Part shown: piece by piece, positions 5,621-25,596 of the stretch
How positions within the stretch are numbered: position 1 is the first letter of the stretch
Layout: every line of letters begins with the position of its first letter
Origin: Alphaproteobacteria bacterium
GTDB lineage: Bacteria; Pseudomonadota; Alphaproteobacteria; CAAHEQ01; UBA3637
Direction: 5' to 3'
DNA: 50,932 bases
NCBI GenBank assembly: GCA_017394405.1
Contig: JAFPYW010000020.1
Coordinates: 1-50,932, forward strand
The notes under the pieces: generated by a model
The model's input: the letters and a program-made list of their open reading frames with translations, nothing else
Database searches by the model: none
What the model was told of the DNA's origin: nothing
Position numbers and translations under genes: made by a program

Positions 5621-6106
5621 TTATTCTATGACTTCACCGTCATATAATCCCCAGACAAAACGGCGGGGAAACCATCCTTCAATTTGTTTGTCCTGATAAA
5701 CGAATTGCAACCGACAATAATCGCCAGCCGGGCACGAATGCACTTTTCCCACAACGCCTGGCTGTACATAGGCAATAACTTTGCCGGAAACGGTCGGCGT
5801 TGATAACAACTTATCTTCGGATTGAATCAACACATAACGCGTTGGTTTTAACATTTTTTGATGCACCCAACCCAACGTCCCATCTACTTCACGGATTTGC
5901 CGCCACATTTCAAAAGAATCTATTACTTCCACGGGATAATTGCGTTCCTGATAGACCCATTTAATCGGAAAACGTTCTGCAGGACCGGCGCGCAAATTCA
6001 CTTGGTCTGATTTCAAAGATTGAAAACCGGTTTCTTCGGCACAAACGCCAAAGGCTGTCAATAAAATCGCCGCAAACACTACCTTATTCAGCTTTTTCAT
6101 TTTCAT
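5621..6106 (-). CDS. periplasmic SH3b-domain protein (YgiM/COG3807-like)
   Basis: Signal peptide MKMKKLNKVVFAAILLTAFGVCA, then NLRAGPAERFPIKWVYQERNYPVEVIDSFEMWRQIREVDGTLGWVHQKML and ...CPAGDYCRLQF...GWFPRRFVWG, typical of alphaproteobacterial SH3-like proteins. The ATG at 6106 is preceded by GGAGG, so the upstream in-frame extension to 6223 is rejected. Confidence 0.7.
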   Translation of the reverse strand: MKMKKLNKVVFAAILLTAFGVCAEETGFQSLKSDQVNLRAGPAERFPIKWVYQERNYPVEVIDSFEMWRQIREVDGTLGWVHQKMLKPTRYVLIQSEDKLLSTPTVSGKVIAYVQPGVVGKVHSCPAGDYCRLQFVYQDKQIEGWFPRRFVWGLYDGEVIE

Positions 6107-6641
6107 CCTCCTTGCTGAACCGATGCCGAATATCCTTATAAACACGGCGCGACGATACCATTTTTGAATGGTCTTCTTTTTCACCCGATTCCAACACAAC
6201 CTTATCTTCCGAGGTTGTACCACCTACCATTGCCGCACCATTTGTCACATCTTTCCAAGCCACCTGAATAGCCGGAACAATCAACATTTGCGCAACAATA
6301 TCCCCACGATGGACCACCACTTGATGGGCAGACATATTTTGCAATAATACAAACAACGGATCGCGACTGGCAGGATGCACCACTTGAGGACCATCTAATA
6401 CAATCAGCCCTTGATCGCGCGCTAATTCCGGCTGGCTAACCACCAAACCACAATAATTGGCAGGAACGCCAATAGCAAAACCGCACGGCATATACGCCCT
6501 ATCACCCGGCTCCAATCGCAAGGTGGAGGGAATGGCCGCCTGTAAATTCAATCCTATATGATACTTAGATGAATATGATGGCAACGCTAATCCGTTTCCA
6601 TCCGCAGTCCGAGCAATATATAATGTTGGAACACGTGCCAT
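6084..6641 (-). CDS. dUTPase-fold protein with degenerate catalytic motifs plus a charged C-terminal tail
   Basis: It aligns by eye with trimeric Dut (LPSYSSKYHIGLNLQAA..LEPGDRAYMPCGFAIGVP..GDIVAQMLIVP). However, motif I AGxDL is IGLNL, motif II (P/G)RS is SQPE, motif III G-x-ID-x-DY-x-G is GPQVVHPASRDP, and the motif V Gly-rich arm is absent. It ends in ~45 aa rich in K/E/D/S/R. Starts 11 nt after the virB11 stop. Confidence 0.6.
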   Translation of the reverse strand: MARVPTLYIARTADGNGLALPSYSSKYHIGLNLQAAIPSTLRLEPGDRAYMPCGFAIGVPANYCGLVVSQPELARDQGLIVLDGPQVVHPASRDPLFVLLQNMSAHQVVVHRGDIVAQMLIVPAIQVAWKDVTNGAAMVGGTTSEDKVVLESGEKEDHSKMVSSRRVYKDIRHRFSKEDENEKAE

Positions 6642-6652
6642 AATTTTCCCCT

Positions 6653-7636
6653 TTAAGTAATTGCCGTAATGGCACGAATATTACCATCTCTGTTGATCTG
6701 AACAACGCGCAATTTTTCTTTCATTTCTTTGCGAGTTTTTTCCTGATCCAATTCCGGATTGGTGTGCATAATGCGGGAAATAAACGCTTGATACGCGGCC
6801 TCAGGACTTTCGGCATGGATCGTGGCAAAGCAGTTTTCGTGGCCTGAATTCATCAATTCCCAAATAGCTCCCGCATTGGATGTTGAAATTTCTCCACCGA
6901 TAATCGCATCCGGCGTAAAACGCACAACCAAATCCACCACTTGGCGATAATCAAATTTGTTATTGGCTTCAGTACGCGCCAACACCAAATGCACGCGGTT
7001 TGGTTGATGTACAATCAATTCACGCGTATCTTCCACCGTAATAATGCGTTTATGCTCATCCAATAACTTTAACATATTATTCAAGAAGGTTGTTTTACCA
7101 GTCGCCGTACCACCGCTGATCAAAATATGGTCGCCACGCTTTATGGATAAAACCAATCGATCATATGGATCATCCGGATCTTCCACATTTTTTAATTTAT
7201 TGATTTGATGCAAACGACCACCTTGAACCAATCCGAATTGATCCATGTGAATATCCACATCCGGGCGATACACACGAATATCCATCGCCACACCGCCTTC
7301 CAAATCGTTTTCATCATATTTCACGTTTTGGCCAACAATACCTGCAAAACGGTGTCCTCCCGGCAATTCTGTATAAAGAGCCGGCACACCCACTTCTTCC
7401 CCAAAGGGTTTGTCTTGGCTGTTGGCAATAATGTACATGATGTTCGTCAAATACTCGCGCGTTAATTTGGGATCTTCATAATAATGCCACGGATGCGCAT
7501 GGCGCCCCCTTAAACGCAACCAAATTCCCCCCGGATTATTGACGGCAACGTCTTCCACATTATCTTGGGAATACCAATAGGCCAATGGTTTCAAAGCCAT
7601 TTCTAAAATACGATGTGAATCTGGACGAGCAACCAT
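6653..7636 (-). CDS. virB11: type IV secretion ATPase VirB11
   Basis: Walker A ISGGTATGKTTFLN, RIITVEDTREL, FTPDAIIGGEIS and NSGHENCFATIHAES match the VirB11/T2SSE hexameric ATPase pattern. The ATG at 7636 has a GGAGGA RBS; the extension to 7705 would overlap the virB10 end. Confidence 0.85.
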   Translation of the reverse strand: MVARPDSHRILEMALKPLAYWYSQDNVEDVAVNNPGGIWLRLRGRHAHPWHYYEDPKLTREYLTNIMYIIANSQDKPFGEEVGVPALYTELPGGHRFAGIVGQNVKYDENDLEGGVAMDIRVYRPDVDIHMDQFGLVQGGRLHQINKLKNVEDPDDPYDRLVLSIKRGDHILISGGTATGKTTFLNNMLKLLDEHKRIITVEDTRELIVHQPNRVHLVLARTEANNKFDYRQVVDLVVRFTPDAIIGGEISTSNAGAIWELMNSGHENCFATIHAESPEAAYQAFISRIMHTNPELDQEKTRKEMKEKLRVVQINRDGNIRAITAIT

Positions 7637-7646
7637 TACATCCTCC

Positions 7647-10600
7647 TTAAAAATACGACTTTGACCCTGTTGGCGGCTGGGAAACGGGTTGCACAAGACG
7701 ATCATCTATATTCGGTTCTTCGGCCGGATAGATGGTGCCAACAGAACTCCCGCCTGCAACGTTAGGACTGCCGCCTGTGGGTTGTCCTTTATTTTCGTTT
7801 GAAGAATTTTCTTCATTTCCCTCTTGCGGCTCACGTTTTTTCATCGGATTATATTCGCTAGGGGGTGTCCCAGCTTTTGTGCTGGGCTTACCATTTTCTG
7901 CCTCTAACTTCGCCTGATCATCCGACACGGCACGCAACCACAAATCTTGACCAGCAAACACTGTAATCCGCGTTCCAGATGGCACATACACGATATTCGG
8001 CACTTCTTTTGCTTCGTCTATCATCTGGTTGAACATTTCTTCCATACGATCGGAAATCATTTGACGCACATCATGACCCACTGAATTTCCGCTTGCCCCA
8101 CTCTTTTCATTGAGAGAAGTCATTTCTAGAGCAAAGATTTCAACTGCTGTGGATAACCATGGTGCCGTATATTTTTTGAACATCTGTTCATCCAAATACG
8201 CTGCCACACCGCCACGTCCCATCGCGTCACCAGAAACGGCCTCAATAGCAAAGGCAGCACCATCAGGTCTGATTAAACGTTCCCAAGAAATGCTCAATTT
8301 GACGGCCTTGCCCGAATCGCCATCGCCACCACTTTCAGCCTTACCAATCAAATGGCTGCCCGCTGGGATCAAAATATTACGTCCTTCTTCTGCATAAATA
8401 TGACGTTCCACCACCGCAGTCACAGGAACATCTGCATACCGAGAATCTATTGCACGTGTCAATACGGCTGGAATTGCCTTGTCTTTTAACAACACATGTG
8501 TCATATCCACAGGCCATGTAGAAATAGACTTGCCCGCCCCAATACTGGACCAATCCTTGTCCTGATGTTTCTTTGCTTTTGCCAAAATTTCAGGGCCCGG
8601 AATAATACCCGGCGTAGAGCTCATCTTTTCACGCATTTGTTTGCGCCGATTAAACATCAACTCTGTCATTATTTGCCGTTGTTCAGGCGTGATTGTCATC
8701 GGTTTTGGCATGACCGGTGGTTCGCGTTTTACTTCTATCGGCCCATCAATCTTGTCACTTTCAAAGAAAAACGGCCGACCATCTTCGCCCATATAACCCA
8801 CGATATTACCATTAGAATCAACCAAAGATCCATTTTCAACCGTAAATGGTTTGCCCTTCAAAATAATCTTCCGACCAGAACCAATCATGTTAGCACTGGA
8901 CAATCCACACTTGCGTAAATCTAATCCAATACCGCGGAACTGACCATATTGAGATCCATCAGGATTATACACCTTACCATCTGGGGTCACCGTCAATAAG
9001 ATATCGTTATTATCGTCACGCAAAGCCCCATCTGCCATCAAGGCCGCCATCTTTTCACCACCAGGCAATTTGCGCAATTCGCAACCAATCAATCTGGCAA
9101 CAGGTTTGTTTGCCATATCATACAAAATCACGAAGTTATCGCCATCTGGTTTAATTCTGGTGCCATCCGGCAAGACCATTTCATTCTTTTTATAATCCCA
9201 CTGGAATAAATCTTCTCCCGTTTCCGGATCTTTCACCCAACCTTCTGCCGTCACGGCATACTTCAATGTGCCATCTTTATTAAAGCCTAAACTGGTCGAT
9301 TTGGGGGCCATCCAACCTTTTCTTTCCCCATTTTCGTCAACCCATATAGCCGTTTTGCCACCGACGATCACACCACATTTACGTCCATCCATACAAATCA
9401 CGTTACCCATGGCGTCAACACGACCTTCCATCTTCTTACTTGTACCAAACACAGGACCACGTTCACGCACCCAACCAATTGTATTTCCGTTCGGATCTAC
9501 AACGCGTGTATCTGTTTGCCCACAACCAATGGTTACACCATTCGGATCCACCACCGTAGAATCAGGCAGCGTACGGCCAACAAACACAGATGTCCGACTG
9601 AATTGTTCGCTGGTCACCGGTCCATACACAACTGTATGACCTAAAACCTTCCCTTGGGCATTTGTGGCATACAACGTCGGTTGAATACGGCCAACGATAT
9701 TTCCTTGACCATTGACCACCTCACCATTATACGTTGTTTGGCCGACAATCGAGCAAGAATCTGTCGTCACCAAAGCATCCGGAATCACCCGACCAATATT
9801 CTTTGTTTCCTCCAATTCCGATTTCACTTCGTGCGGGAAAATGGCCCCTGCAGAATCTACAAAGCCCAAATCTTCTCCAGCAGAAGACATCATTCTGGCA
9901 TCACCATCCATTGTTCCCATTATTGTATCGTCATGAGAAATAGCTGGATAAAATGGCACAACAACACCTTCCAAAGGCCGTTCTTTACCCAAAACAGTAG
10001 CATCATCCAATAAGTTATAAATAATCTTGTCTGAGGAATCAATAATATCGCCATGAACCGTTGTCCGCCCTAACACATTTCGGCCATAACCGATTGGCAA
10101 CCCCTGCGCCACCAAGTGCCCGTTATAAGGCATTGTGTTATACACAGCCCGCTCATCCACACCAACAGACGATCCATCCGCCAAAACGCGGCCTTTGAAT
10201 CCCCTGTCAGATCCAACAATCGTTCCATCAGCCGCAACAACACCCACTTTGCGTGCATAGTCATCAATGATTGCACCGGTTTTGATTTGTCCCCCGATCC
10301 ATAATGTTTCCGGTGTCAACGCCGAATAAAATGGTGTTTTAACACCCAACACCTTACCAGCAAAATCAACAACCTGACCTTTGGCATCTAATTGGCCGAC
10401 CACAGCGCCCACGCGGTCAATAATGGTCGCCGGTGGTGTCACAGATCCGGAAATAACTCCAGCATTTTTATACAATACACCCATACCGGATACATTTCCT
10501 TGAACACGCCCACCCAACCATAAAGCACCCGTCATCAACTCAGTGCCCGCCTGACTTAAATTGATTTGTGACATCAACCCCATCGGAACAACAGCTCCGG

Positions 10601-13600
10601 TCAATTTCTTATCAGCATCCATCACATAATCATTCATCATGGCGGTACCAACTTGCTTTGTGCTGTTGTCGCGATACACGGTTCCATCCAAATTTAACCC
10701 ACCGACTTCACCATCATCTCGCAAGTTACGCACATATAAAGAACCTGTCCGCAAACGACCATTTAGGGCCCCATTTTCCATTGTGTAATCCGGCGCCAAT
10801 GCCACACCTAAATTCCGACCACTAACAGCCATAACGGCACCCGATTCCGTCACAATACCGCTTTGACGAATATCTTCGTGCATAGAGGGCGTTCCCAATG
10901 GCACATAGCCACCGACAATTGCATTATTTTCGCCCAACACACGATTATCCAAACTGACACGACCAACAACTTCCGTGCTATTCATAATACGACCATCAAT
11001 GGCCGTCCAGCCCAACATTTGTCCAGCGCCACCGACAGCAATACCTTCACGCAATACCCGACCAACGGAAGACAGATCATTATTCCATACATATCCTTCG
11101 GCACCGACCACAAAGTCCGTCAGCCCGTTTGCACCGTAAACAGCACCATCTGCAGAAACACGTCCGATATACGCTCCTGAACGATCCACCACTGTTCCTT
11201 TATGAATCACCGAACCGATTACATAACCATCGGCATCAAACACCAATCCGTTTTGACCCAAACGACCAATATCTTTTCCTTCGGCATCAACCACTTCGCC
11301 ACGGAAAGTAACCCAACCCAACAATTCATGAGCCGTACTCATCACCAAACCGATCGGCTCCGCAACACCACCCAAACGACCTTCTGTTGTTAAAACTGTT
11401 CCAAACGGTGACACAACCCCCAAATAATTGCCGGCTTTATCATATGCCGCTAATTGATAAGACATTGTATCCGTTTTACTGGTTGCCCTTGGAACAATCG
11501 TTCCAGACATACCCTCGCCAGACACAACTACAGACATCGGCATCCACACACGACCAATCACACGATTATCTGGATTCACAACCAAACCATTACCCAAAAC
11601 AGATCCAATACGGGTTCCTTTTGACATAACATCCCCATTGGCATTTGCCCAACCAACCTGAGTTCCCATCGCGGATAACACCACGCCTGTCGGAACAGCC
11701 GCACCAATCAAGACATTGTTCGTACTATACAACGCGCCATCAGACATCACCTTTCCAACGACTTGACCTGTTTCATCCACAACCTGTCCATCCAAACTCA
11801 ACATACCGACGAATTCACCATTCAATCCAACAAATGTTGTATTTTGTGGAATCAAAGAACCCAAAACTTGATTTCCAGCCATATTCAAAACTGTTAAATC
11901 TGGCATCACGCGCCCCAATTCATCTCCGTTGGCATTTAACGCTTCACCCAATAAACGATTATAGGTACCCAAAACAGCACCAGTTACTGAAACAATTACC
12001 CCATTAGGCGGCATAAAACCAATCATGTGGCCCTGTTTATCGGAAGCCCATCCGTTAAACGCCACTGAGCCAACTTCTTCATTACGTTCATTGAAACATT
12101 TGCCAGACATCGCCATCAATCCAGACGGCAAACCATTATCACCCAATACAACGCCCTTTTCCAAATTCATTGCATCTTGTAACAAGCCGCTGGGATCCAC
12201 ACAATCAATCACTTTTCCTTCGCGATCAATCACACGACCATCATAGCGAATATAACCCTTCACGCTGCCATCTGGAGAAATTGCCACACCAACCGGTGTA
12301 ATAGCCCCTATTTCTACGCCATTGGCTTTGACAGCACGCTTTTGCATATTCACGCAACCAACTGACATTCCCTCTTTATTCACAACCTGACCGGTCAAGG
12401 AAATCAGGCCCATTAAACGACACCCTTCAGCCATTACTGTTCCCCGTGGCACCACCACACCAATCACTTTGTTTTTGTTATTCAAAACATATCCATCAGC
12501 CCGCACAACGCCCGTGGGTTGAACATCTTGGGACATAACTTGACCATCTGGATAAACCGATCCTAACACATTGCAAGCATTCCCCACGACTTTTCCTTTT
12601 TGCAAAACTCCCCCGATAGTTTTCTTGCCAGTTGTCACCATACCATCTGGACCCGCAAAACCAATCATTGTTTCTTTGTTAGAAACACCCTTTCCCTCAG
12701 AATTGATAAAGCCAACGATAACTCCTTTAACATCCGCGATCAAACCTTGACGCACAACGGCCCCCAATTCATTCAACTTGCCATCAACAACCGTGCCATC
12801 CGGCATAACACGACCGACAATTTGACCATAATTATCTTTCACTTGTCCATTTAACGCCACAACACCATACGATGTGCCATTTGTTCCAACCGCCACACCT
12901 TGTGGCACAATACGACCCAACAATGTACCATTGGAATCTGTCACAAAACCATTTTGTTGCAAATGTCCCACGACTTTATTGTCGCCATTGATAATATCAC
13001 CCGTTGGTAAAATAGCACCCAACAAATTACCCGACAAATCTAATGTATAACCCCAATCACGAACAGTACCAATTTCTGAGCCAGTACTATCCACAACAGA
13101 TCCATCAACACGTGGATACCCAATTGTATCGCCGTGATTATCTATGACTTTAATTGAATTATTTTCAATCAAAAACTTACCAATAACAGTTCCTTGGGCA
13201 TTTATAACAGATGTCACCGGTAACGCAGCACCCAATACATTCAACTCTGTATCAACCAATGTGTCATCACCCAACAAACGGCCCAATGTAACACCATCTT
13301 TTTCCACCGTTCTGTATTCTGTGACTTCTCCCAAGTATTCGTTTTTCAAACTTAAAGCAATCCGTTTTGGTTCCACGACCACGCCCGGAACGATATTACC
13401 TTTTTCGTCACGCAACAATTCACCATCAACGGTTTCACCATCTTTCAGATCACGAGTTTCTCCATTGGCCAACATTACTTGCCGACGATGTTTTGTACCC
13501 TTTTCCTTTTCTACCTCACAACAAACACATTCTTTAGAGTCTGTAGAACTCCCCTTTAATTGAATTTGGGTGCGTTCATCCCTCAACACACGAGGATTAT

Positions 13601-14105
13601 CTTCACGCCAAACAATGGTTAAAGTATTTTGAATTGTACCAACAGTTATTGGCTTCCATGTTACTTTCAACAAACATTCATCATTTTCGTTTAATTGTGT
13701 TTTTTCCATACAAGGACCGCCCAACATAAATCCATTTTCCGGATTTTCTGCCAGATATTTTTGTAAGAAGACAATTGGCGCATTTTTAGCACGTAAGACC
13801 AAAACGGCTTCACCCAAACCACCTAACACAACTTGATCCATACTGACTTCTGATGGTGTAACCAACAATTCAGCGCCCCCCACACCGAAAGAAGGCAAAC
13901 GAGAATCTTTTCCACTTCCATCATCAACGGTGGATGCCAACGAAAAATCATCCACTGGGCGGATTTGTTGATTGTTATTTTTCTTTTGACGAACAGAACA
14001 TAAAACCAACAGGAACAGAATAAAAACAATCAAACCCAACACAGACAGAATCCATGTCGTACGGCGTTTTGATTGCTCTGATAAACTTTCCCGACTTTCT
14101 GCCAT
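7647..14105 (-). CDS. virB10: giant VirB10-like T4SS protein (2152 aa)
   Basis: Single uninterrupted ORF. It has an N-terminal TM anchor (TTWILSVLGLIVFILFLLVLCSV). The C-terminal ~200 aa (VLLKDKAIPAVLTRAIDS..PVTAVVERHIY..GRNILIPAGSHLIGKA..ISWERLIRPDG..GVAAYLDEQMFKKY..YVPSGTRITVFAGQDLWL) show the TrbI/VirB10 barrel-domain pattern. Position is between virB9 and virB11. Confidence 0.85.
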   Translation of the reverse strand: MAESRESLSEQSKRRTTWILSVLGLIVFILFLLVLCSVRQKKNNNQQIRPVDDFSLASTVDDGSGKDSRLPSFGVGGAELLVTPSEVSMDQVVLGGLGEAVLVLRAKNAPIVFLQKYLAENPENGFMLGGPCMEKTQLNENDECLLKVTWKPITVGTIQNTLTIVWREDNPRVLRDERTQIQLKGSSTDSKECVCCEVEKEKGTKHRRQVMLANGETRDLKDGETVDGELLRDEKGNIVPGVVVEPKRIALSLKNEYLGEVTEYRTVEKDGVTLGRLLGDDTLVDTELNVLGAALPVTSVINAQGTVIGKFLIENNSIKVIDNHGDTIGYPRVDGSVVDSTGSEIGTVRDWGYTLDLSGNLLGAILPTGDIINGDNKVVGHLQQNGFVTDSNGTLLGRIVPQGVAVGTNGTSYGVVALNGQVKDNYGQIVGRVMPDGTVVDGKLNELGAVVRQGLIADVKGVIVGFINSEGKGVSNKETMIGFAGPDGMVTTGKKTIGGVLQKGKVVGNACNVLGSVYPDGQVMSQDVQPTGVVRADGYVLNNKNKVIGVVVPRGTVMAEGCRLMGLISLTGQVVNKEGMSVGCVNMQKRAVKANGVEIGAITPVGVAISPDGSVKGYIRYDGRVIDREGKVIDCVDPSGLLQDAMNLEKGVVLGDNGLPSGLMAMSGKCFNERNEEVGSVAFNGWASDKQGHMIGFMPPNGVIVSVTGAVLGTYNRLLGEALNANGDELGRVMPDLTVLNMAGNQVLGSLIPQNTTFVGLNGEFVGMLSLDGQVVDETGQVVGKVMSDGALYSTNNVLIGAAVPTGVVLSAMGTQVGWANANGDVMSKGTRIGSVLGNGLVVNPDNRVIGRVWMPMSVVVSGEGMSGTIVPRATSKTDTMSYQLAAYDKAGNYLGVVSPFGTVLTTEGRLGGVAEPIGLVMSTAHELLGWVTFRGEVVDAEGKDIGRLGQNGLVFDADGYVIGSVIHKGTVVDRSGAYIGRVSADGAVYGANGLTDFVVGAEGYVWNNDLSSVGRVLREGIAVGGAGQMLGWTAIDGRIMNSTEVVGRVSLDNRVLGENNAIVGGYVPLGTPSMHEDIRQSGIVTESGAVMAVSGRNLGVALAPDYTMENGALNGRLRTGSLYVRNLRDDGEVGGLNLDGTVYRDNSTKQVGTAMMNDYVMDADKKLTGAVVPMGLMSQINLSQAGTELMTGALWLGGRVQGNVSGMGVLYKNAGVISGSVTPPATIIDRVGAVVGQLDAKGQVVDFAGKVLGVKTPFYSALTPETLWIGGQIKTGAIIDDYARKVGVVAADGTIVGSDRGFKGRVLADGSSVGVDERAVYNTMPYNGHLVAQGLPIGYGRNVLGRTTVHGDIIDSSDKIIYNLLDDATVLGKERPLEGVVVPFYPAISHDDTIMGTMDGDARMMSSAGEDLGFVDSAGAIFPHEVKSELEETKNIGRVIPDALVTTDSCSIVGQTTYNGEVVNGQGNIVGRIQPTLYATNAQGKVLGHTVVYGPVTSEQFSRTSVFVGRTLPDSTVVDPNGVTIGCGQTDTRVVDPNGNTIGWVRERGPVFGTSKKMEGRVDAMGNVICMDGRKCGVIVGGKTAIWVDENGERKGWMAPKSTSLGFNKDGTLKYAVTAEGWVKDPETGEDLFQWDYKKNEMVLPDGTRIKPDGDNFVILYDMANKPVARLIGCELRKLPGGEKMAALMADGALRDDNNDILLTVTPDGKVYNPDGSQYGQFRGIGLDLRKCGLSSANMIGSGRKIILKGKPFTVENGSLVDSNGNIVGYMGEDGRPFFFESDKIDGPIEVKREPPVMPKPMTITPEQRQIMTELMFNRRKQMREKMSSTPGIIPGPEILAKAKKHQDKDWSSIGAGKSISTWPVDMTHVLLKDKAIPAVLTRAIDSRYADVPVTAVVERHIYAEEGRNILIPAGSHLIGKAESGGDGDSGKAVKLSISWERLIRPDGAAFAIEAVSGDAMGRGGVAAYLDEQMFKKYTAPWLSTAVEIFALEMTSLNEKSGASGNSVGHDVRQMISDRMEEMFNQMIDEAKEVPNIVYVPSGTRITVFAGQDLWLRAVSDDQAKLEAENGKPSTKAGTPPSEYNPMKKREPQEGNEENSSNENKGQPTGGSPNVAGGSSVGTIYPAEEPNIDDRLVQPVSQPPTGSKSYF
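7932..8525 (-). other. TrbI/VirB10 C-terminal barrel domain within the giant ORF (aa ~1861-2058)
   Basis: The motif run listed for the parent CDS. The remaining 94 aa (7650..7931) form a P/G/N/E/S-rich low-complexity tail. Confidence 0.75.
8766..13478 (-). repeat. protein-level degenerate tandem repeat array, period ~17 aa (aa ~210-1780 of VirB10)
   Basis: Consecutive units read directly from the translation: GQVKDNYGQIVGRVMPD / GTVVDGKLNELGAVVRQ / GLIADVKGVIVGFINSE / GKGVSNKETMIGFAGPD / GKVVGNACNVLGSVYPD / GQVMSQDVQPTGVVRAD / GYVLNNKNKVIGVVVPR. Consensus is G-x-V-x-[DN]-x-x-G-x-x-[IVL]-G-x-[VI]-x-x-[DG]. Boundaries and copy number (roughly 80-90) are by-eye estimates. The DNA copies are too diverged to be exact repeats. 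Confidence 0.75.
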
Positions 14106-14114
14106 AGCACCCTA

Positions 14115-15815
14115 CTATTTAATTCTGACGACCGAGCACGAATATCCGCGTTTTCCCAATTTCCGGCAAAGCGTATCTGCCGTCTCAGCATCTTTCACAG
14201 TTCCCGCACGCAAACGGAACAAATCCATTGTTTCACCATTTGCCGATGTATCAACAGAATAGTACGGATCATATCCGGCCAACAAGTCCCCATTTGCACG
14301 ATATACTTGCTCCCACAATTTTTCCAACTCGGCAATTTCACCGGCTGTACCAAATTCTAGAGCAATATTTTCTTTTGCAGCAACCGGCAACACAACACCT
14401 TTGTCGGCTTGAATAGCATCAATTTCAGCGCGAGCCGCACTGGATTGTCTGACTGATGCAGGAATCGCCGCCATTGGTTGCCATGCAGCTGTACCGCCAC
14501 AACGATTAGCCCCTAATGTGTCATCACAATATGGGTTGATACCACCCGTTGCATACGGATTATATCCACCAGTTTCTGTCGCATAAGCCCCATTTCCAGC
14601 ACCTAATTGAGCCGGTGCATACGGATTATTACCATGCAACACAGAACCTCCTCTGTATGTCACTTCCGGATTCGGCATATCTGGCGCACGCACAGGTAAT
14701 TGAGTGTTATAAGCATAGGGTTGAGAATTAAACGCGCTGTAATCCGTATATTCCAAACCAGCGGCAGGATCACGACGCATCTTGATGCAAATAACTTTGC
14801 GCCCATTTCTCAAAACCAAATCACCAATGGCTTCTACTACAATCAATCGGCTGTTTGGACCACGCGTTCTAAAGCCCACCGGCACCTCTGAATCTTGTTG
14901 CAATAAACTGACCACTGGACGTTGTGTCATTGTCAATGCTTTCGGGCCCAAATCAATGTAGGTGAAAATGTTATCACGCCACACATTATCCGGCGCAATA
15001 TCAACATCATCCGGATTTGGCAAGAACATATCCAAGTCAAATTTCAATGCTTCTGGATCCATTGGAACCGTATTTTTCCATTCATTGGCTGTATTGATTT
15101 GCAACGCACTTGTTGTCGAACGTGCAGTTGTTGCACCCATCATATTCAAAGACGGCATAGAGGCCATTGTGGAAACCCCATCACCCTCGCGCAACTGGCC
15201 ACCATCAGCCACAGGCGTCCAACGTGGCCCCACCAAAACATCTACCACCGATTGAGTAATTTTGTCTGTGTTGAAGGTTTCACTGCGCAAATAGAAAACG
15301 TATCTATTTCCGGAACGACCAAACATCACCATGTTACTATCCACACCCACATAGGTTGGATCTGCATACAACAACATTGAGTTTGGCGCCACAATATCCC
15401 CACCGAAAGATTCCGGCGCACCAATATGAACTTTTTCAATCAATTCCCATGACGGCAAATTGATCAAAGTCATCATTCCTTCTCGAACACGCACAGGCAA
15501 CACAGTATCTGGCGTCCAGTTATATTTGGAATACCCTGGCTTTGTTTGTCCGGAACCCATGTGAGCCAATGGATTATTCCACGCTTTTTGTTGCATTCCC
15601 AATCCTTGTCCCATTGAACGCAACCAATCCATATCCACTTCATCATATTGGCCGGATGCGTTAGCAAGAGCGTCAGCTAATTGTGCCGCTTGTGGATCGG
15701 TAGGAACATTTGTTTGTGCAAAAAGAGGGGAAACAAAAACACCCAAAACACCCGTCAATACGGGTAAAACTCCCTTTAATAAAAACTTTTTACTCACCGG
15801 TTCCTCCTTTTTCAT
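14115..15815 (-). CDS. virB9: VirB9-like T4SS outer-membrane core protein with C-terminal SPOR domain (566 aa)
   Basis: Signal peptide ..LTGVLGVFVSPLFA. VirB9/CagX-type N-domain (YNWTPDTVLPVRVREGMMTLINLP..RYVFYLRSE) and C-domain (IFTYIDLGPKALTMTQRPVVSLLQQDSEVPVGFRTRGPNSRLIVVEAIGDLVLRNGRKVICIKM). This is followed by a ~130-aa Y/N/P/G-rich linker and the SPOR-like end. Confidence 0.8.
   Translation of the reverse strand: MKKEEPVSKKFLLKGVLPVLTGVLGVFVSPLFAQTNVPTDPQAAQLADALANASGQYDEVDMDWLRSMGQGLGMQQKAWNNPLAHMGSGQTKPGYSKYNWTPDTVLPVRVREGMMTLINLPSWELIEKVHIGAPESFGGDIVAPNSMLLYADPTYVGVDSNMVMFGRSGNRYVFYLRSETFNTDKITQSVVDVLVGPRWTPVADGGQLREGDGVSTMASMPSLNMMGATTARSTTSALQINTANEWKNTVPMDPEALKFDLDMFLPNPDDVDIAPDNVWRDNIFTYIDLGPKALTMTQRPVVSLLQQDSEVPVGFRTRGPNSRLIVVEAIGDLVLRNGRKVICIKMRRDPAAGLEYTDYSAFNSQPYAYNTQLPVRAPDMPNPEVTYRGGSVLHGNNPYAPAQLGAGNGAYATETGGYNPYATGGINPYCDDTLGANRCGGTAAWQPMAAIPASVRQSSAARAEIDAIQADKGVVLPVAAKENIALEFGTAGEIAELEKLWEQVYRANGDLLAGYDPYYSVDTSANGETMDLFRLRAGTVKDAETADTLCRKLGKRGYSCSVVRIK
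14118..14369 (-). other. SPOR-type peptidoglycan-binding domain at the VirB9 C-terminus (aa ~483-566)
   Basis: NIALEFGTAGEIAELEKLWEQVYRANGDLLAGYDPYYSVDTSANGETMDLFRLRAGTVKDAETADTLCRKLGKRGYSCSVVRIK follows the alphaproteobacterial SPOR pattern (..A...W..l....gdlL.g..p......G...yRLR.G......A..lC..L...G..C.vv). Confidence 0.65.
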
Positions 15816-15936: not shown

Positions 15937-16650
15937 TTATGGTCTTATTTCTTCAGGTTCCGAAGGCTCCAAACCAAAACTTAAAACCTTAAATCCAAGT
16001 GGGTTTTGCAAGATTTGAGAACGGCTGCGCGGTTCTCCATCTGGACGGAATGCAACTTTAGCACGAGCAATCCACCAAGTTTCTTCCGGCACAGACGAAA
16101 CGCGGTTCATTTGACTAATTTTAATTTTGGCTTCATAGACATCCCCATCATTTGGACCCGTTGCAGTCTGAGTTTTATTCACGCGCAAAATTTTAACATC
16201 CCGTGTCATATTGTCTTCTTGGGCCATTTTTCCCAATCTTACCAATTCTTGTTTTTTGAATTCGTCATACACCGTATTAGAGCTCATTTGTTCCACGATA
16301 CCACCGGGCCCCCAACGTGTTTCTTGTTCTTGCCAGTTGGATCCGATACCATATCGCGCCAACAAATATTGACGTACATAAGACCCTTTTAATGTATCGG
16401 AATCTAATACTTCCTGGGCAGGACGCACCACATCAATAATTTGCTCATTTTTATCTTTTGTTGAAATATAAAACGGCTGAACACGCAACACAGGAGTCAC
16501 ATTAGCCAAGGCAATCAGCAAAACAATATCACAAATAATGGCCAAAACTACCATCACCACAAAAGCCCGAGACATCCATAAATAACGCTCCTCCTGCAAA
16601 ACTTCGCGGGAAGAAACAGAATGTTTCTGTGTGTTTTCAGATGGTGCCAT
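15937..16650 (-). CDS. virB8: VirB8 family T4SS protein (copy b, 237 aa)
   Basis: Bitopic layout: cytoplasmic N-terminus, TM (AFVVMVVLAIICDIVLLIALANV), then an NTF2-like VirB8 region (LRVQPFYI...YVRQYLLARYGIGSNWQEQETRWGPGGIVEQMSSNTVYDEF). GAGGAGG RBS. Confidence 0.8.
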   Translation of the reverse strand: MAPSENTQKHSVSSREVLQEERYLWMSRAFVVMVVLAIICDIVLLIALANVTPVLRVQPFYISTKDKNEQIIDVVRPAQEVLDSDTLKGSYVRQYLLARYGIGSNWQEQETRWGPGGIVEQMSSNTVYDEFKKQELVRLGKMAQEDNMTRDVKILRVNKTQTATGPNDGDVYEAKIKISQMNRVSSVPEETWWIARAKVAFRPDGEPRSRSQILQNPLGFKVLSFGLEPSEPEEIRP

Positions 16651-16664
16651 AGCCCCTCCTCAAC

Positions 16665-16841
16665 TTACGAAAACCACTCAGGCAATTCCGGTGCTTTTTT
16701 CAATTCCAAACAGGCACAAGGAGATTTTTTCAACTCCGAATATTCAGGACCAATGCCCACCGGCATTTTTTCATAAACCGAGTTACATGCGGCCAAAATC
16801 AAGCCACAAAGCCCTAAAAACAAACAAATATACGTTTTCAT
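16665..16841 (-). CDS. virB7: small lipoprotein in the VirB7 position (RvhB7-like)
   Basis: MKTYICLFLGLCGLILAAC has a lipobox, and the mature peptide is ~40 aa. It sits between two virB8 copies, as in rvh islands. Assignment is by size, lipobox and position only. I prefer the ATG at 16841 over the GTG at 16847. Confidence 0.55.
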   Translation of the reverse strand: MKTYICLFLGLCGLILAACNSVYEKMPVGIGPEYSELKKSPCACLELKKAPELPEWFS

Positions 16842-16911
16842 AGTCACCCTTTCTGTTATCTCATTTTCCCTTACTTTATCACATTAAATCAAAATATCAA
16901 CAAAAAAATGA

Positions 16912-17523
16912 TTATTTTGTCACATTTGATTCATCCACACTGGTTATAATAAAGCCATAAGGATTGGAAAGAACGCTACCCATCAAACGTCTGGCAGGCA
17001 TATAACCAAAGTGCAGCACAACGCTTCGTGTCGATTTGCGCCATGTTCCACGTCCCGTGGCTTCATATAAGTCAAAAATAACGGCATAATAATTTTCTTT
17101 ACGTGTTGCACTAATAATATCAACAACCTTTTGTTGGGAATTTTCATCCGCCGAAGTGTAAATATCTTCCGAAGGAGCAAATTCATCATATACTTTTGGG
17201 GCAGACAAAAAGGCCACAATGCCATTTGGCCCCCAACGACGGGTCATTTCTACAGAATCCGAAATAAAAGAATAACGCATTGTCACATACAAACGAACCA
17301 GTGCATCATCTACTGTTTGACGTTGTAACGCGCTCACTGGAATAACCGTAATTAAATCGCGAAACTCACCAGAATCTAAACGAAAAACTTGTGCAAGCAC
17401 ATTGACCTGTAAAACCGCCTGAAACAAAGTAACAACAATAAAAAATGTCACAATCCAAACGGCCCAACATACCACCATCAGTAATCGTGTCAAATGCCAT
17501 GCTGTCGTTTTGTGTTCAGTCAT
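16912..17523 (-). CDS. virB8: VirB8 family T4SS protein (copy a, 203 aa)
   Basis: TM (LLMVVCWAVWIVTFFIVVTLF), then VRLYVTMRYSFISDSVEMTRRWGPNGIVAFLSAPKVYDEF, which parallels copy b (R-W-G-P-x-G-I-V..Y-D-E-F). Confidence 0.8.
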   Translation of the reverse strand: MTEHKTTAWHLTRLLMVVCWAVWIVTFFIVVTLFQAVLQVNVLAQVFRLDSGEFRDLITVIPVSALQRQTVDDALVRLYVTMRYSFISDSVEMTRRWGPNGIVAFLSAPKVYDEFAPSEDIYTSADENSQQKVVDIISATRKENYYAVIFDLYEATGRGTWRKSTRSVVLHFGYMPARRLMGSVLSNPYGFIITSVDESNVTK

Positions 17524-17539: not shown

Positions 17540-18691
17540 TTAGCAAGAACCGAGATCAATCTCCCGATTCACGACATTAGCATCAAAATCGCTGTATGCT
17601 TGATCAATCATTTTGTTCAACATCGCTTTGTTGGCGCGTTTTTCCGCCATTCTTCTATCCACTTCAGACGCATTTGTTTCTGTCATATAAACCTCACCAT
17701 CCGCGTCTTTTTCCAAAGCCGTTACAATAATTTGTTGGCGTGCCTGTGGCGTCATTTGATCTGCTACAGCTATATCCGGAAATACATCGGGAAATTGTTC
17801 CTGAATTTCTCCAAATACCGCCTGTTTATTTTGAGAACGAGCCGCCCTGCGCTCAACCAAATCAGGATTAGCTGCATCTTGAGCATCTAATTGGCTGATA
17901 TAGGCCTTCGCCTCGTCCAAATATTGTTGTTTCAATGTCTTTAATTTTTTATGCACAGCCGTTACTTTCGTGCCGCGAATAAAATCTAACTCTGGCTCTT
18001 GAACATCAAATTCTGCCAATTTAGAAACGAACATTTGTTGCATTTTCATAAATTGTTCATCCGCCTGAGTTTGTCCGATTTGGGCGTGTGTCAATCCTTT
18101 TTCAGCCATATTCATTTCTTCTAACAAGTTGTAGTCGCTGTTACGAGCCAAGGCCTCTGGTGCCTCATCCGAGGAACGATCCACAACATCACCACCCCAC
18201 GTTCTGGCATTTTTGAAAACATCTTTCATCAAATCATTTTCAATATCACGCTTTTCGGCAAGTTTTGCGTTTTGCTCGGAAATGGAGAGCGGCACAATGC
18301 TGTCTGGATGTGCTTTTTTATCACTTTTCAGATCTGCGGTCCGCGTCTTATAGGCCTCACGTACCTTTTTTAACATTTCACCTGCATTCTTAAAACGTCC
18401 GGAAAAGCGTTTTTCGCCACATTGGTTCAATGCCTTCATATACTTTTCCATCTTTCCTGTTGTTTTACGCAATACACGAACGGTTTCCGCTGTCTTTTCC
18501 AATTCTGGCATTTGGTTCATTAAATTATGAACAGCCAACGCCTTTTCCAAGGCCTCGTTCCGCGTTGCCAACAATTGTCGGCGCGCTTTGACTTCAATTT
18601 TTATAACAGGCGGAGCCCCGTGGCGCACAGCACCCACAGGCGAACTCACCAAAACAAATCCACAAACACATGCTAATAAAATATGCTTCAT
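17540..18691 (-). CDS. exported coiled-coil protein, unknown family (383 aa; T4SS-linked block member 6)
   Basis: Signal peptide MKHILLACVCGFVLVSSPVGA. The rest is K/E/A/Q-rich helical sequence ending in ..DLGSC. There is a 16-nt gap to virB8a. Confidence 0.75.
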   Translation of the reverse strand: MKHILLACVCGFVLVSSPVGAVRHGAPPVIKIEVKARRQLLATRNEALEKALAVHNLMNQMPELEKTAETVRVLRKTTGKMEKYMKALNQCGEKRFSGRFKNAGEMLKKVREAYKTRTADLKSDKKAHPDSIVPLSISEQNAKLAEKRDIENDLMKDVFKNARTWGGDVVDRSSDEAPEALARNSDYNLLEEMNMAEKGLTHAQIGQTQADEQFMKMQQMFVSKLAEFDVQEPELDFIRGTKVTAVHKKLKTLKQQYLDEAKAYISQLDAQDAANPDLVERRAARSQNKQAVFGEIQEQFPDVFPDIAVADQMTPQARQQIIVTALEKDADGEVYMTETNASEVDRRMAEKRANKAMLNKMIDQAYSDFDANVVNREIDLGSC

Positions 18692-18694
18692 GTC

Positions 18695-19939: not shown

Positions 19940-19948
19940 AATGCCTCC

Positions 19949-21614: not shown

Positions 21615-21620
21615 GTCCTC

Positions 21621-25519: not shown

Positions 25520-25596
25520 TGGCGATCCCGGGGCGATTCGAACGCTCGACCTACTGCTTAGAAGGCAGTTGCTCTATCCAGCTGAGCTACGGGACC
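25520..25596 (-). tRNA. tRNA-Arg (anticodon TCT)
   Basis: The reverse complement is GGTCCCGTAGCTCAGCTGGATAGAGCAACTGCCTTCTAAGCAGTAGGTCGAGCGTTCGAATCGCCCCGGGATCGCCA. It has a 7-bp acceptor stem, anticodon arm ACTGC-CTTCTAA-GCAGT, T-loop TTCGAAT and an encoded CCA. There is one A-C mismatch in the T-stem. Confidence 0.85.

What the first reader, a model, noticed from the sequence alone, without database searches (positions are those of the whole stretch)
6084..6641. Catalytically degenerate dUTPase-fold protein occupies the slot after virB11 where rvh islands carry virD4
Seen: the ORF starts 11 nt after the virB11 stop on the same strand and aligns along its length with trimeric dUTPases. Every catalytic motif is altered. 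Motif I AG-x-DL is IGLNL. Motif II (P/G)-R/K-S is SQPE. Motif III G-x-ID-x-DY-x-G is GPQVVHPASRDP, with no Asp pair. Motif IV R-I-A-Q survives only as IVAQ. The motif V Gly-rich P-loop-like arm is missing. It is replaced by a ~45-aa K/E/D/S/R-rich tail (..SGEKEDHSKMVSSRRVYKDIRHRFSKEDENEKAE). Established: these motifs bind dUTP/Mg2+ and are near-invariant in active Dut. dUTPase folds are known to moonlight as regulators, for example phage Dut acting on staphylococcal Stl repressors. Inference: this is a pseudo-enzyme recruited to the T4SS operon as a regulator, chaperone or adaptor, or as a secretion substrate carrying a charged C-terminal signal. It is probably not the cell's housekeeping Dut.
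Basis: partly seen in the sequence, partly recalled or inferred. Interest (0 to 1): 0.62.

Follow-up and report, generated by a model that had tools for sequence, protein, structure and literature searches.

The report
Inactive dUTPase relative after virB11
This gene encodes a strongly conserved descendant of the bacterium's own dUTPase that has lost its catalytic residues, and its constant partner across relatives is a small periplasmic SH3 protein, not the type IV secretion genes it follows here.

Summary
ORF 6084-6641(-) starts 11 nt after virB11 and has a trimeric-dUTPase fold (hhalign 99.95%; Foldseek TM 0.88-0.92). It lacks the catalytic and phosphate-binding residues of motifs I-IV and the Gly-rich motif V.

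It is not a one-off. At least 75 proteins from uncultured Alphaproteobacteria share the same substitutions ("DutL"; the window's close relatives are gut and rumen MAGs). The core is under strong purifying selection (dN/dS 0.04-0.10). A basic C-terminal motif, [RK]R-x5-R-x-R-[FY], is present in 65 of 73 members.

The T4SS reading is only partly supported. virB8-virB11 lies directly upstream in the window and in 13 relatives. Five deeper DutL lineages and a second degenerate family (DutL2) have no T4SS genes next to them.

The invariant neighbour is the downstream, start-overlapping gene for a signal-peptide SH3_4 protein. Other Alphaproteobacteria carry coaBC-dut(canonical)-thiF-SH3_4, so DutL is probably the positional descendant of the housekeeping dut.

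The acidic C-terminal tip is largely encoded by the Shine-Dalgarno and start region of the SH3_4 gene.

Still untested: the protein's function, and whether these genomes carry another dUTPase.

The parts
6084..6641 (-). dutL: 185-aa degenerate trimeric-dUTPase-fold protein (whole CDS including stop)
6246..6641 (-). dUTPase jelly-roll core, residues 1-132. Motif I is HIGLNL, motif II VVSQPE, motif III GPQVVHPASRDP, motif IV HRGDIVAQ.
   Evidence: Gap-free hhalign to canonical Dut; motif table; pLDDT about 90; dN/dS 0.04-0.10
6162..6245 (-). Variable, acidic, predicted-disordered linker (residues 133-160)
   Evidence: pLDDT below 50 for residues 134-165; dN/dS 0.2-0.4 or higher; poorly aligned columns in A1
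6117..6155 (-). Conserved basic C-terminal motif S163-S-R-R-V-Y-K-D-I-R-H-R-F175. Family pattern is [RK]R-x5-R-x-R-[FY].
   Evidence: R166 and R172 invariant, R174 and F175 at least 90%; present in 65 of 73 members, ending 4-12 residues from the C-terminus; dN/dS about 0-0.1 in four of five close pairs
6084..6116 (-). Acidic tip SKEDENEKAE plus stop. The DNA doubles as the SD (AAGGAGG) and start region of the SH3_4 gene.
6642..6652 (-). 11-nt virB11-dutL spacer containing the SD AGGGGA; no room for a promoter
   Evidence: The same layout is seen at 12 of the 13 related virB11-linked loci; in L015 virB11's TAA is directly followed by ATG.
5621..6100 (-). SH3_4 (DUF1058) gene: 159 aa, signal peptide, two conserved Cys. 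It overlaps the dutL 3' end by 17 nt and is the invariant partner of dutL.
   Evidence: (P0247). SH3_4 is downstream in every dutL and dutL2 locus examined.
6653..7705 (-). virB11-type ATPase. The true start is probably M24 at 7636, where the alignments to related loci begin (residues 18-29).
7647..14105 (-). Giant VirB10/TrbI (2152 aa) with beta-flower repeats
14115..15815 (-). VirB9/CagX with a C-terminal SPOR domain
15937..17523 (-). Two VirB8 paralogues (15937-16650 and 16912-17523)

Best explanation
ORF 6084-6641(-) belongs to an undescribed but well-conserved family, here called DutL. The family occurs in uncultured Alphaproteobacteria; the window's close relatives are gut and rumen MAGs.

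Origin. DutL descends from the alphaproteobacterial housekeeping dUTPase and probably sits at that gene's ancestral position. Other Alphaproteobacteria have coaBC-dut-thiF-SH3_4; here thiF is gone and dutL overlaps the SH3_4 gene.

What it kept. It retains the jelly-roll core. By inference it also retains the arm-swapped trimer.

What it lost. It has lost the residues that hold Mg2+ and phosphate and that activate the catalytic water: D32, R71/S72, D90, D92, Y93, R116 and the Gly-rich motif V. It is therefore very unlikely to hydrolyse dUTP by the canonical mechanism.

What replaced motif V. A disordered linker of about 30 aa is followed by a conserved Arg-rich motif, [RK]R-x5-R-x-R-[FY].

Proposed mechanism (inferred, not shown). 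The protein is a non-catalytic trimer that presents three flexible basic arms. These arms bind a polyanionic ligand or partner, such as a nucleotide, a nucleic acid or an acidic protein surface. They may still close over the former inter-subunit cleft, as motif V does in active Dut.

Relation to the T4SS. The fixed functional unit is the translationally coupled dutL-SH3_4 pair. In the window's clade the virB8-virB11 operon has been joined directly upstream. There dutL and SH3_4 are read out with the T4SS genes, but that link is secondary and clade-specific.
For: Fold and homology.

Loss of catalytic residues across 75 members. None of 27 members reaches the NCBIfam dut cut-offs. The window protein scores 69.8 bits against a cut-off of 103, and the best member has E=1.7e-25 (about 90 bits by my conversion).

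Functional constraint: 28 invariant columns at 44-91% identity. dN/dS is 0.04-0.10 in the core, about 0-0.1 in the basic motif in four of five close pairs, and 0.2-0.4 or more in the linker.

SH3_4 directly downstream, usually with overlapping start, in every locus: the window, the L004 locus plus 13 GTDB species representatives, P0061, P0064, P0068, L023, L026, and DutL2 loci L019-L022.

T4SS absent next to dutL in five DutL lineages and in DutL2: same calls.

Ancestral neighbourhood: among 80 metagenomic SH3_4 loci, thiF lies upstream in 23 (16 of the 25 with at least 3.5 kb of flank). A canonical dut lies upstream of thiF on the same strand in 7. Four loci show dut-thiF-SH3_4 with a coaBC match upstream of dut (L049, L067, L078, L088).

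Phylogeny: in an NJ tree, DutL and DutL2 branch beside canonical alphaproteobacterial Duts.

Localisation: DutL has no signal peptide or TM segment, while SH3_4 has a signal peptide.
Against: No biochemical data exist.

I could not read whole genomes, so a second, canonical dut (or a Dcd-Dut, or a dimeric dUTPase) in these MAGs is neither shown nor excluded.

The dut-thiF-SH3_4 neighbourhood is seen in only a subset of Alphaproteobacteria. The S. meliloti dut locus lacks it.

The NJ grouping of the two degenerate families could be long-branch attraction.

The virB11-dutL junction is tight and conserved in 13 related loci whose downstream flanks differ where examined. That could reflect a real T4SS-related role in that clade.

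Trimer formation and arm docking were not modelled. Only a monomer prediction was possible, and the arm has pLDDT of about 50-60.

The idea that the basic motif derives from motif V rests only on a MAFFT global alignment. The profile-profile alignment stops at column 139.
Confidence: 0.6

Rival explanations
1. T4SS accessory or substrate. DutL was recruited to the virB operon as a regulator, chaperone or adaptor of the secretion ATPases, or it is itself translocated using its charged C-terminus.
For: The window and 13 related loci show virB8-virB9-virB10-virB11-dutL-SH3_4 on one strand. Only 11-20 nt and an SD separate virB11 from dutL, while the downstream flanks differ between the loci examined. 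No VirD4 is recognisable in the window. An Arg-rich motif near the C-terminus loosely recalls the Arg-rich signals of Agrobacterium VirB/D4 substrates; this is from my memory and was not tested.
Against: Five DutL lineages and all three DutL2 loci lack T4SS neighbours but keep the degenerate motifs. The DutL lineages also keep the basic motif and the SH3_4 partner. The last 10 residues are net acidic (mean -2.75). The last 20 residues of the window protein have net charge 0. The tip is dictated by the overlapping SH3_4 initiation region. DutL shows no homology to any T4SS component. No paper in the searched library links dUTPase and virB11. The genome scan that gave 12 of 13 linked loci used peptide patterns biased towards close relatives of the window.
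Confidence: 0.15
2. Still an enzyme or nucleotide binder with a rebuilt site. DutL hydrolyses or senses dUTP or another nucleotide using new conserved residues (H28, N32, H89, D92, R93, R112, Q118) and the Arg/Phe-bearing arm.
For: If it is the only dut descendant, pressure to keep a nucleotide function would be expected. The residues replacing the motifs are themselves nearly invariant. R94, the RG of motif IV, A118 and Q119 are retained. The arm keeps an S-x-R...F pattern that MAFFT aligns with R141 and F146 of motif V. Purifying selection is as strong as for an enzyme.
Against: Five or more residues needed for Mg2+, phosphate binding and water activation are replaced at once: D32N, R71Q, S72P, D90H, R116V/I. 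Y93, the Tyr of motif III, is Asp in most members. Scores fall below every curated dut cut-off. The profile-profile alignment does not extend to the arm.
Confidence: 0.17
3. Decaying relic. The ORF persists only because its translation delivers ribosomes to the overlapping SH3_4 start, and the protein itself has no function.
For: The SH3_4 start and SD lie inside the last codons of dutL in nearly all loci. All catalytic motifs are lost.
Against: Core dN/dS is 0.04-0.10. There are 28 invariant positions across sequences down to 44% identity. Length is conserved, with no frameshifts or stops in more than 70 members. The C-terminal motif is conserved. A spacer ORF would not be constrained in this way.
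Confidence: 0.05

Closest known systems
Homotrimeric dUTPase (Dut, EC 3.6.1.23; PF00692 / TIGR00576), especially alphaproteobacterial enzymes (Brucella 3mbq, Rickettsia 7n56) and Aquifex 8y1q
   Same: Same jelly-roll fold. The alignment over about 135 residues is gap-free. The N-terminal I-x-R...G-L-P-L-P-x-Y signature is shared with alphaproteobacterial Dut. R94, the RG of motif IV, A118 and Q119 are kept. The genomic neighbourhood with SH3_4 is shared.
   Different: Motif I Asp, motif II Arg-Ser, motif III Asp-x-Asp-Tyr, motif IV Arg and the Gly-rich motif V are all replaced. A 30-aa linker, a basic motif and an acidic tip are added. Scores fall below the curated dut cut-offs.
DutL2, the second degenerate Dut family found here (P0085, P0087, P0243 and others)
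   Same: Alphaproteobacterial. Motifs I, II and IV and the Gly-rich motif V are lost, and Y93 is Asp. It is always followed by an overlapping SH3_4 gene. It has a disordered acidic C-terminal extension.
   Different: It keeps D90, N84 and T88 of motif III. The tails are 70-300 aa, Pro- and Glu-rich, and in the seven C-termini read carry a [AKP]P[FHCV]IP-like motif instead of the Arg-rich one. It lies after L21-L27-Obg-RsfS and was not next to a T4SS in the three loci read.
Herpesvirus dUTPase-related proteins (DURPs; Davison & Stow 2005, cited as ref. 21 in PMC12524310)
   Same: The dUTPase fold is redeployed after loss of catalytic motifs, and the proteins are retained for non-enzymatic roles.
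   Different: DURPs are viral, derive from a monomeric double-domain dUTPase, and have host-directed functions. There is no specific sequence relationship. The comparison rests on the literature, not on a test here.
Staphylococcal phage trimeric Duts that derepress SaPI Stl (PMC4914113, PMC5593958)
   Same: A trimeric Dut used for protein-protein signalling, with the C-terminal arm (motif V) involved.
   Different: Those Duts are catalytically active, need an extra motif VI insertion, and need intact motifs IV and V. DutL has no insertion in the core (gap-free alignment) and lacks those motifs.
Rickettsiales vir homologue (rvh) / P-type T4SS cluster virB8-virB9-virB10-virB11-virD4
   Same: The order virB8(x2)-virB9-virB10-virB11 is on one strand, and virB8 is duplicated.
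   Different: No virD4 follows virB11. The next genes are dutL and SH3_4. VirB10 is 2152 aa with beta-flower repeats, and VirB9 carries a SPOR domain. The rvh gene order is from my own knowledge, not from a tool result.

Membership tests
Trimeric dUTPase (PF00692 / TIGR00576 / NF001862) | Jelly-roll dUTPase fold and significant profile match | tested here: met
   Pfam 29.6 bits against GA 22. hhalign 99.95%, E=1.2e-38. Foldseek TM 0.88-0.92 to Dut structures.
Trimeric dUTPase (PF00692 / TIGR00576 / NF001862) | Score above the curated NCBIfam cut-offs for dut (NF001862 equivalog, TIGR00576) | tested here: not met
   69.8 bits against 103, and 52.7 against 102.55. All 27 family members match, but the best is E=1.7e-25, about 90 bits by my conversion and still below the cut-off.
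Trimeric dUTPase (PF00692 / TIGR00576 / NF001862) | Motif I Asp (E. coli D32), which helps hold Mg2+ | tested here: not met
   Asn in 61 of 75 members and Thr in 8; the window has N32.
Trimeric dUTPase (PF00692 / TIGR00576 / NF001862) | Motif II Arg-Ser-Gly (R71, S72, G73), which binds phosphate | tested here: not met
   Q/L/N at R71, P at S72, variable at G73; the window has Q-P-E.
Trimeric dUTPase (PF00692 / TIGR00576 / NF001862) | Motif III G-x-I-D-x-D-Y-R-G (catalytic D90; Y93 over the deoxyribose) | tested here: not met
   D90 is H/N/S, D92 is A, Y93 is D (S in the window). Only R94 is kept.
Trimeric dUTPase (PF00692 / TIGR00576 / NF001862) | Motif IV R-I-A-Q (R116, Q119) | tested here: not met
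   R116 is V/I. A118 and Q119 are kept in 71-72 of 75 members.
Trimeric dUTPase (PF00692 / TIGR00576 / NF001862) | Motif V Gly-rich C-terminal arm R-G-x-x-G-F-G-S-T-G | tested here: not met
   No Gly-rich arm is present. HMM and hhalign alignments end at about residue 135. A possible relic (S-x-R...R-F) is suggested only by MAFFT.
Trimeric dUTPase (PF00692 / TIGR00576 / NF001862) | dUTP hydrolysis | not testable with these tools
   Needs an enzyme assay or complementation.
dCTP deaminase (PF22769) | Profile score above the gathering threshold | tested here: not met
   17.3 bits against 27.
T4SS (VirB/VirD4, rvh) component or dedicated accessory | Homology to a known VirB/VirD4 protein | tested here: not met
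   Only dUTPase and DCD models hit.
T4SS (VirB/VirD4, rvh) component or dedicated accessory | Gene neighbourhood with T4SS genes conserved across the protein family | tested here: not met
   Linked in the window and 13 related loci. Unlinked in P0064, P0068, P0061, L023, L026 and in DutL2.
VirB/D4-type secretion substrate | Net-positive, Arg-rich extreme C-terminus | tested here: inconclusive
   An Arg-rich motif is present but ends 4-12 residues before the C-terminus. The last 10 aa have mean net charge -2.75. The last 20 aa have mean +1.1, and 0 in the window protein. The criterion itself is from memory.
VirB/D4-type secretion substrate | T4SS-dependent translocation | not testable with these tools
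   Needs a reporter assay.
Stl-derepressing phage Dut | Extra motif VI insertion plus intact motifs IV and V (PMC4914113, PMC5593958) | tested here: not met
   The core alignment to canonical Dut is gap-free, so there is no insertion. Motifs IV and V are degenerate. There is no phage context.

The most novel reading that the evidence does not exclude
This clade of host-associated (gut and rumen) Alphaproteobacteria has no active dUTPase at all. Its only Dut homologue has been converted into a non-catalytic trimer with three SLiM-bearing arms. That trimer works with the envelope: it is co-expressed with the periplasmic SH3_4 protein and, in the gut clade, with the T4SS, for example as a cytoplasmic adaptor or regulator of the secretion ATPases. 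This would be a bacterial counterpart of the herpesvirus DURPs.
Probability: 0.15. Interest if true: 0.7.

Novelty: new variant of a known kind. Interest (0 to 1): 0.42.

Why it matters
Pseudo-dUTPases are established in herpesviruses. I found no description of a conserved, chromosomal, catalytically stripped Dut family in bacteria.

If DutL is the only Dut homologue in these genomes, three things follow:
- A whole host-associated alphaproteobacterial lineage lives without dUTPase.
- It shows how an essential enzyme fold can be turned to another use.
- It offers a tractable case: a small soluble trimer with one short conserved motif, suitable for finding a new non-enzymatic Dut function.

There is also a practical point. 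Some members are named 'dUTP diphosphatase' in public annotation, which is probably wrong and would mislead metabolic reconstructions of gut MAGs.

For T4SS biology the lesson is cautionary. A tight operon junction in one clade is not evidence of a dedicated role.

Tried and rejected
It was repeated with 12 sequences. That scan is biased towards close relatives, so its 12 of 13 T4SS linkage is not a family-wide frequency.

2. I looked for a canonical dut in the window and in every fetched locus of the clade by tblastn with E. coli Dut. Only dutL itself was found. Whole genomes could not be read, so the 'sole dut' question stays open.

3. I looked for transcript evidence of virB11-dutL read-through. 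Only gut-metagenome DNA runs hold the sequence, and no RNA run does.

4. Plasmid collection: only canonical duts at 35% identity or less, and no DutL. This is not a plasmid T4SS accessory. The S. meliloti dut locus shows no SH3_4 neighbour.

5. Motif V relic idea. MAFFT pairs R166 with R141 and F175 with F146, but hhalign ends at column 139. I keep it only as a lead.

6. dCTP-deaminase reading: rejected, because the score is below threshold.

7. Reading the six ORFs upstream of virB8 (17540-25384) as VirB6, VirB4 or VirD4: rejected. They have no Pfam hits, and each starts with a signal-peptide-like segment rather than the many TM helices expected of VirB6.

8. Trimer and pocket inspection was not possible. 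Only a monomer model without coordinates was available.

9. Literature searches for dUTPase with virB11, and for dUTPase-like with type IV secretion, gave nothing relevant.
Full report
**What is at the coordinates**

The ORF at 6084..6641 on the minus strand encodes 185 aa. The virB11-type ATPase gene (6653..7705; TIGR02788 E=8.5e-44, PF00437) ends 11 nt upstream on the same strand. The junction reads TAA-AGGGGAAAATT-ATG, that is, a stop codon, a Shine-Dalgarno sequence and a start codon.

Further upstream on the same strand lie:
- a 2152-aa VirB10/TrbI with beta-flower repeats;
- a VirB9/CagX with a SPOR domain;
- two VirB8 paralogues;
- six ORFs without Pfam hits.

The rest of the window is chromosomal housekeeping: IF3, LepA, RecR, YebC, DnaA, Lpt genes and FolD. 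Nothing in the window is recognisable as VirD4 or VirB4.

**Is it a dUTPase-fold protein with degenerate motifs? Yes.**

Evidence for the fold:
- Pfam PF00692 scores above its gathering threshold (29.6 against 22 bits).
- The best solved relative is the Aquifex Dut 8y1q (E=1.5e-18, residues 7-131).
- A profile of 27 family members against a profile of 25 canonical Duts gives 99.95% probability, E=1.2e-38, over 139 columns without a single gap.
- The AlphaFold model has pLDDT of about 90 through residue 130. Foldseek returns only trimeric dUTPases (Aquifex, Brucella, Rickettsia, M. tuberculosis, E. coli), with target-normalised TM 0.88-0.92.

Evidence for the degenerate motifs, using E. coli numbering (sequence checked as identical to PDB 1dud) and 75 family members against 68 canonical Duts:

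| E. coli residue | Family | Window |
|---|---|---|
| D32 | N (61 of 75) | N |
| R71 | Q/L/N | Q |
| S72 | P (59) | P |
| G87 | Q | Q |
| D90 | H (52), also N/S | H |
| D92 | A (73) | A |
| Y93 | D (64) | S |
| R116 | V/I | I |
| R94, RG of motif IV, A118, Q119 | retained | retained |

The Gly-rich motif V is absent. The window protein and all 27 members tested fall below the curated NCBIfam dut cut-offs.

**It is a family, and it is under selection**

The word-indexed search found 69 homologues of 174-197 aa at 45-91% identity, all covering the full length and all from metagenomes or 'Alphaproteobacteria bacterium' MAGs.

The exhaustive profile search found only 13 cluster representatives at E<=1e-30 before running into ordinary Duts. 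The family, which I call DutL, is therefore small and discrete.

Twenty-eight columns are invariant across 27 sequences.

Pairwise dN/dS:
- 0.04-0.10 in the core;
- about 0-0.1 in the C-terminal basic motif for four of the five closest pairs;
- 0.2-0.4 or more in the linker between them.

This is a working protein, not a decaying gene.

**Anatomy of the tail**

The tail has three parts.

- Residues 133-160 form a variable, acidic linker predicted to be disordered (pLDDT below 50).
- Residues 163-175 (SSRRVYKDIRHRF) carry a conserved motif. R166 and R172 are invariant, and R174 and F175 are at least 90% conserved. The strict pattern [RK]R-x5-R-x-R-[FY] occurs in 65 of 73 full-length members and ends 4-12 residues before the C-terminus.
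- The final acidic tip (SKEDENEKAE) is encoded by AAGGAGGATGAAAATGAAAAAGCTGAATAA. This stretch holds the Shine-Dalgarno sequence and the start codon of the next gene.

The same overlap of 4-23 nt recurs in nearly every related locus. The E/D-rich tip is therefore largely a by-product of the downstream gene's initiation region.

The last 10 residues are net acidic (mean -2.75). The last 20 residues of the window protein have net charge 0.

**The neighbour that never changes is SH3_4, not the T4SS**

The downstream gene (5621..6100, 159 aa) encodes a two-SH3 protein of family PF06347 (SH3_4/DUF1058). It has a signal peptide and two conserved cysteines.

Linked loci. A scan of one genome per GTDB species found DutL in 13 MAGs (human-gut and rumen samples, including UBA3650 and UBA3768). 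Twelve of them, like the window, show virB8-virB9-giant virB10-virB11-dutL-SH3_4; L016 and L018 show only part of it on short contigs. In 12 of the 13 related linked loci the stop of virB11 is followed within about 20 nt by an SD and the dutL start; in L015 the start follows the stop directly. That scan used peptide patterns taken from close relatives, so it over-samples the window's clade.

Unlinked loci, found by sampling deeper branches:
- P0064: dutL-SH3_4 follows an acyl-ACP thioesterase gene and has its own TATAAT box.
- P0068 and P0061: a stand-alone bicistron after a divergent gene.
- L023: follows a metallo-beta-lactamase gene. L026: follows a TerC gene.

All five keep the degenerate motifs, the basic motif and the SH3_4 partner, and none has a T4SS gene in the flanks.

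DutL2. A second degenerate family of 200-430 aa emerged from the exhaustive search.
- It keeps D90 but has lost D32, R71, S72, D92, Y93, R116 and Q119, and it has no Gly-rich motif V.
- It has long acidic, proline-rich tails.
- In all three loci read it lies after Obg-RsfS (preceded by L21-L27 in two of them), is followed by an overlapping SH3_4 gene, and has no T4SS neighbour.

**Where the pair comes from**

I scanned metagenome contigs with an SH3_4 alignment and obtained 80 loci of more distant SH3_4 genes.
- In 23 of them a thiF-family gene lies upstream. This is so in 16 of the 25 loci with at least 3.5 kb of upstream flank.
- In 7 loci a canonical, motif-intact dut lies upstream of thiF on the same strand.
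- Four loci (L049, L067, L078, L088) show dut-thiF-SH3_4 with a coaBC match upstream of dut.

A given gene lying within 4 kb of dut by chance would be a roughly one-in-a-thousand event. This is therefore a conserved alphaproteobacterial neighbourhood, though not a universal one; S. meliloti lacks it.

The simplest reading is that DutL is the positional descendant of the housekeeping dut, with thiF lost in between. An NJ tree places DutL and DutL2 together beside canonical alphaproteobacterial Duts. Long-branch attraction cannot be excluded.

In the window's clade the virB8-11 operon was then joined directly upstream. In the tree the T4SS-linked loci form two groups, and the unlinked P0064/P0061/P0068 group sits near one of them. 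The junction may therefore have been made once and later lost, or made more than once.

**How it most likely works**

Shown:
- the fold;
- loss of the canonical catalytic and phosphate-binding residues;
- strong constraint on the core and on the basic motif;
- no signal peptide or TM segment in DutL, consistent with a cytoplasmic protein;
- a predicted exported partner;
- overlapping start and stop signals.

Inferred:
- The arm-swapped trimer is retained, because the last core strand and the Q-V-x-W segment are conserved.
- dUTP hydrolysis by the canonical route is lost.
- The three flexible arms with their Arg-rich, aromatic-ended motif bind a polyanionic ligand or partner. They may fold back over the old inter-subunit cleft as motif V does.

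A MAFFT alignment pairs R166 with R141 and F175 with F146, but the profile-profile alignment does not reach that far.

I put about 0.6 on this overall picture: a non-catalytic descendant of dut, a DutL-SH3_4 unit, and a secondary T4SS link. The alternatives get about 0.15 for a genuine T4SS-specific role in the gut clade, about 0.17 for a rebuilt nucleotide-binding or hydrolysing site, and about 0.05 for a mere coupling relic.

**Comparison with what is known**

DutL has the dUTPase fold but fails the defining sequence tests of the enzyme family (motifs I-V and the curated cut-offs). I therefore do not file it as a dUTPase.

As a concept it resembles the herpesvirus dUTPase-related proteins, where the fold is redeployed after catalytic loss (Davison & Stow 2005, cited in PMC12524310). 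It also recalls the signalling use of phage Duts against Stl (PMC4914113, PMC5593958). It lacks motif VI and the intact motifs IV and V that those phage proteins need.

Some prokaryotes are known to live without dUTPase (PMC5122711), so a lineage whose only Dut homologue is inactive would not be unprecedented.

My searches of the paper library found nothing describing a bacterial chromosomal pseudo-dUTPase family, or any link between dUTPase and virB11. Two members are annotated 'dUTP diphosphatase' in NCBI records. That name is probably wrong.

**Verdict**

It is a pseudoenzyme, but most likely the lineage's own dut gone non-catalytic and tied to SH3_4. The T4SS adjacency is a clade-specific operon fusion, not the reason the protein exists.

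The open points are whether another dUTPase exists in these genomes, and what the basic arm binds. Neither could be tested with the data I could reach.

Novelty: a new variant of a known kind. Interest is moderate.

Noticed in passing
window 7647-14105 (-); also L004 2404-8979: The VirB10/TrbI homologue is a giant of 2152 aa. Its long N-terminal region has at least five 'beta-flower' repeats (PF21785), and only the last 190 aa or so form the TrbI domain. A 2191-aa version is conserved in a relative.
   Followed up: partly
window 14115-15815 (-): The VirB9/CagX homologue carries a C-terminal SPOR (peptidoglycan-binding) domain.
   Followed up: no
window 17540-25384 (-): Six consecutive ORFs (383, 414, 288, 279, 308 and 946 aa) lie upstream of the two VirB8 paralogues. 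None has a Pfam hit that passes threshold, even at E<0.1. All begin with a signal-peptide-like segment. They may be novel secreted or periplasmic T4SS-associated proteins.
   Followed up: partly
window 35052-37694 (+): A single 880-aa ORF combines an LptF/LptG permease domain (residues 6-355) with LptD_N and LptD domains (residues 398-878). This is an unusual apparent fusion; the LptD match is partial.
   Followed up: no
loci L019-L022 (for example L019 10001-11017; L021 10001-11299): A second family of degenerate dUTPase homologues (DutL2, 200-430 aa) has long acidic, proline-rich tails. In the seven C-termini read, the tails carry a [AKP]P[FHCV]IP-like motif. In the three loci read the order is Obg-RsfS -> DutL2 -> SH3_4 -> two unknown ORFs.
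   Followed up: partly
loci L049, L067, L078, L088 and others of L028-L107: There is a conserved alphaproteobacterial neighbourhood coaBC-dut-thiF-SH3_4(DUF1058). The thiF-SH3_4 adjacency is seen in 23 of 80 loci.
   Followed up: yes
window 6084-6116 / 6100: The ORF list shows the SH3_4 reading frame open from a GTG at 6223. The real start is the second ATG at 6100, which has an AAGGAGG SD and a 6-nt spacer and matches the 159-aa called product P0247. The overlap with dutL is therefore 17 nt.
   Followed up: yes
proteins P0011, P0058 (relatives of window 6084-6641): Public records name these DutL members 'dUTP diphosphatase', although no member reaches the NCBIfam dut cut-offs and the catalytic residues are missing. 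This is a probable mis-annotation.
   Followed up: partly
window 47226-48614 (+) and surroundings: dnaA, YebC, RecR and LepA lie within about 40 kb of the T4SS cluster, so the cluster is chromosomal. The only integrase-family gene is a XerC/D-like one at 34150-35055. tRNA-Arg at 25520-25596 lies just upstream of the 946-aa ORF.
   Followed up: no
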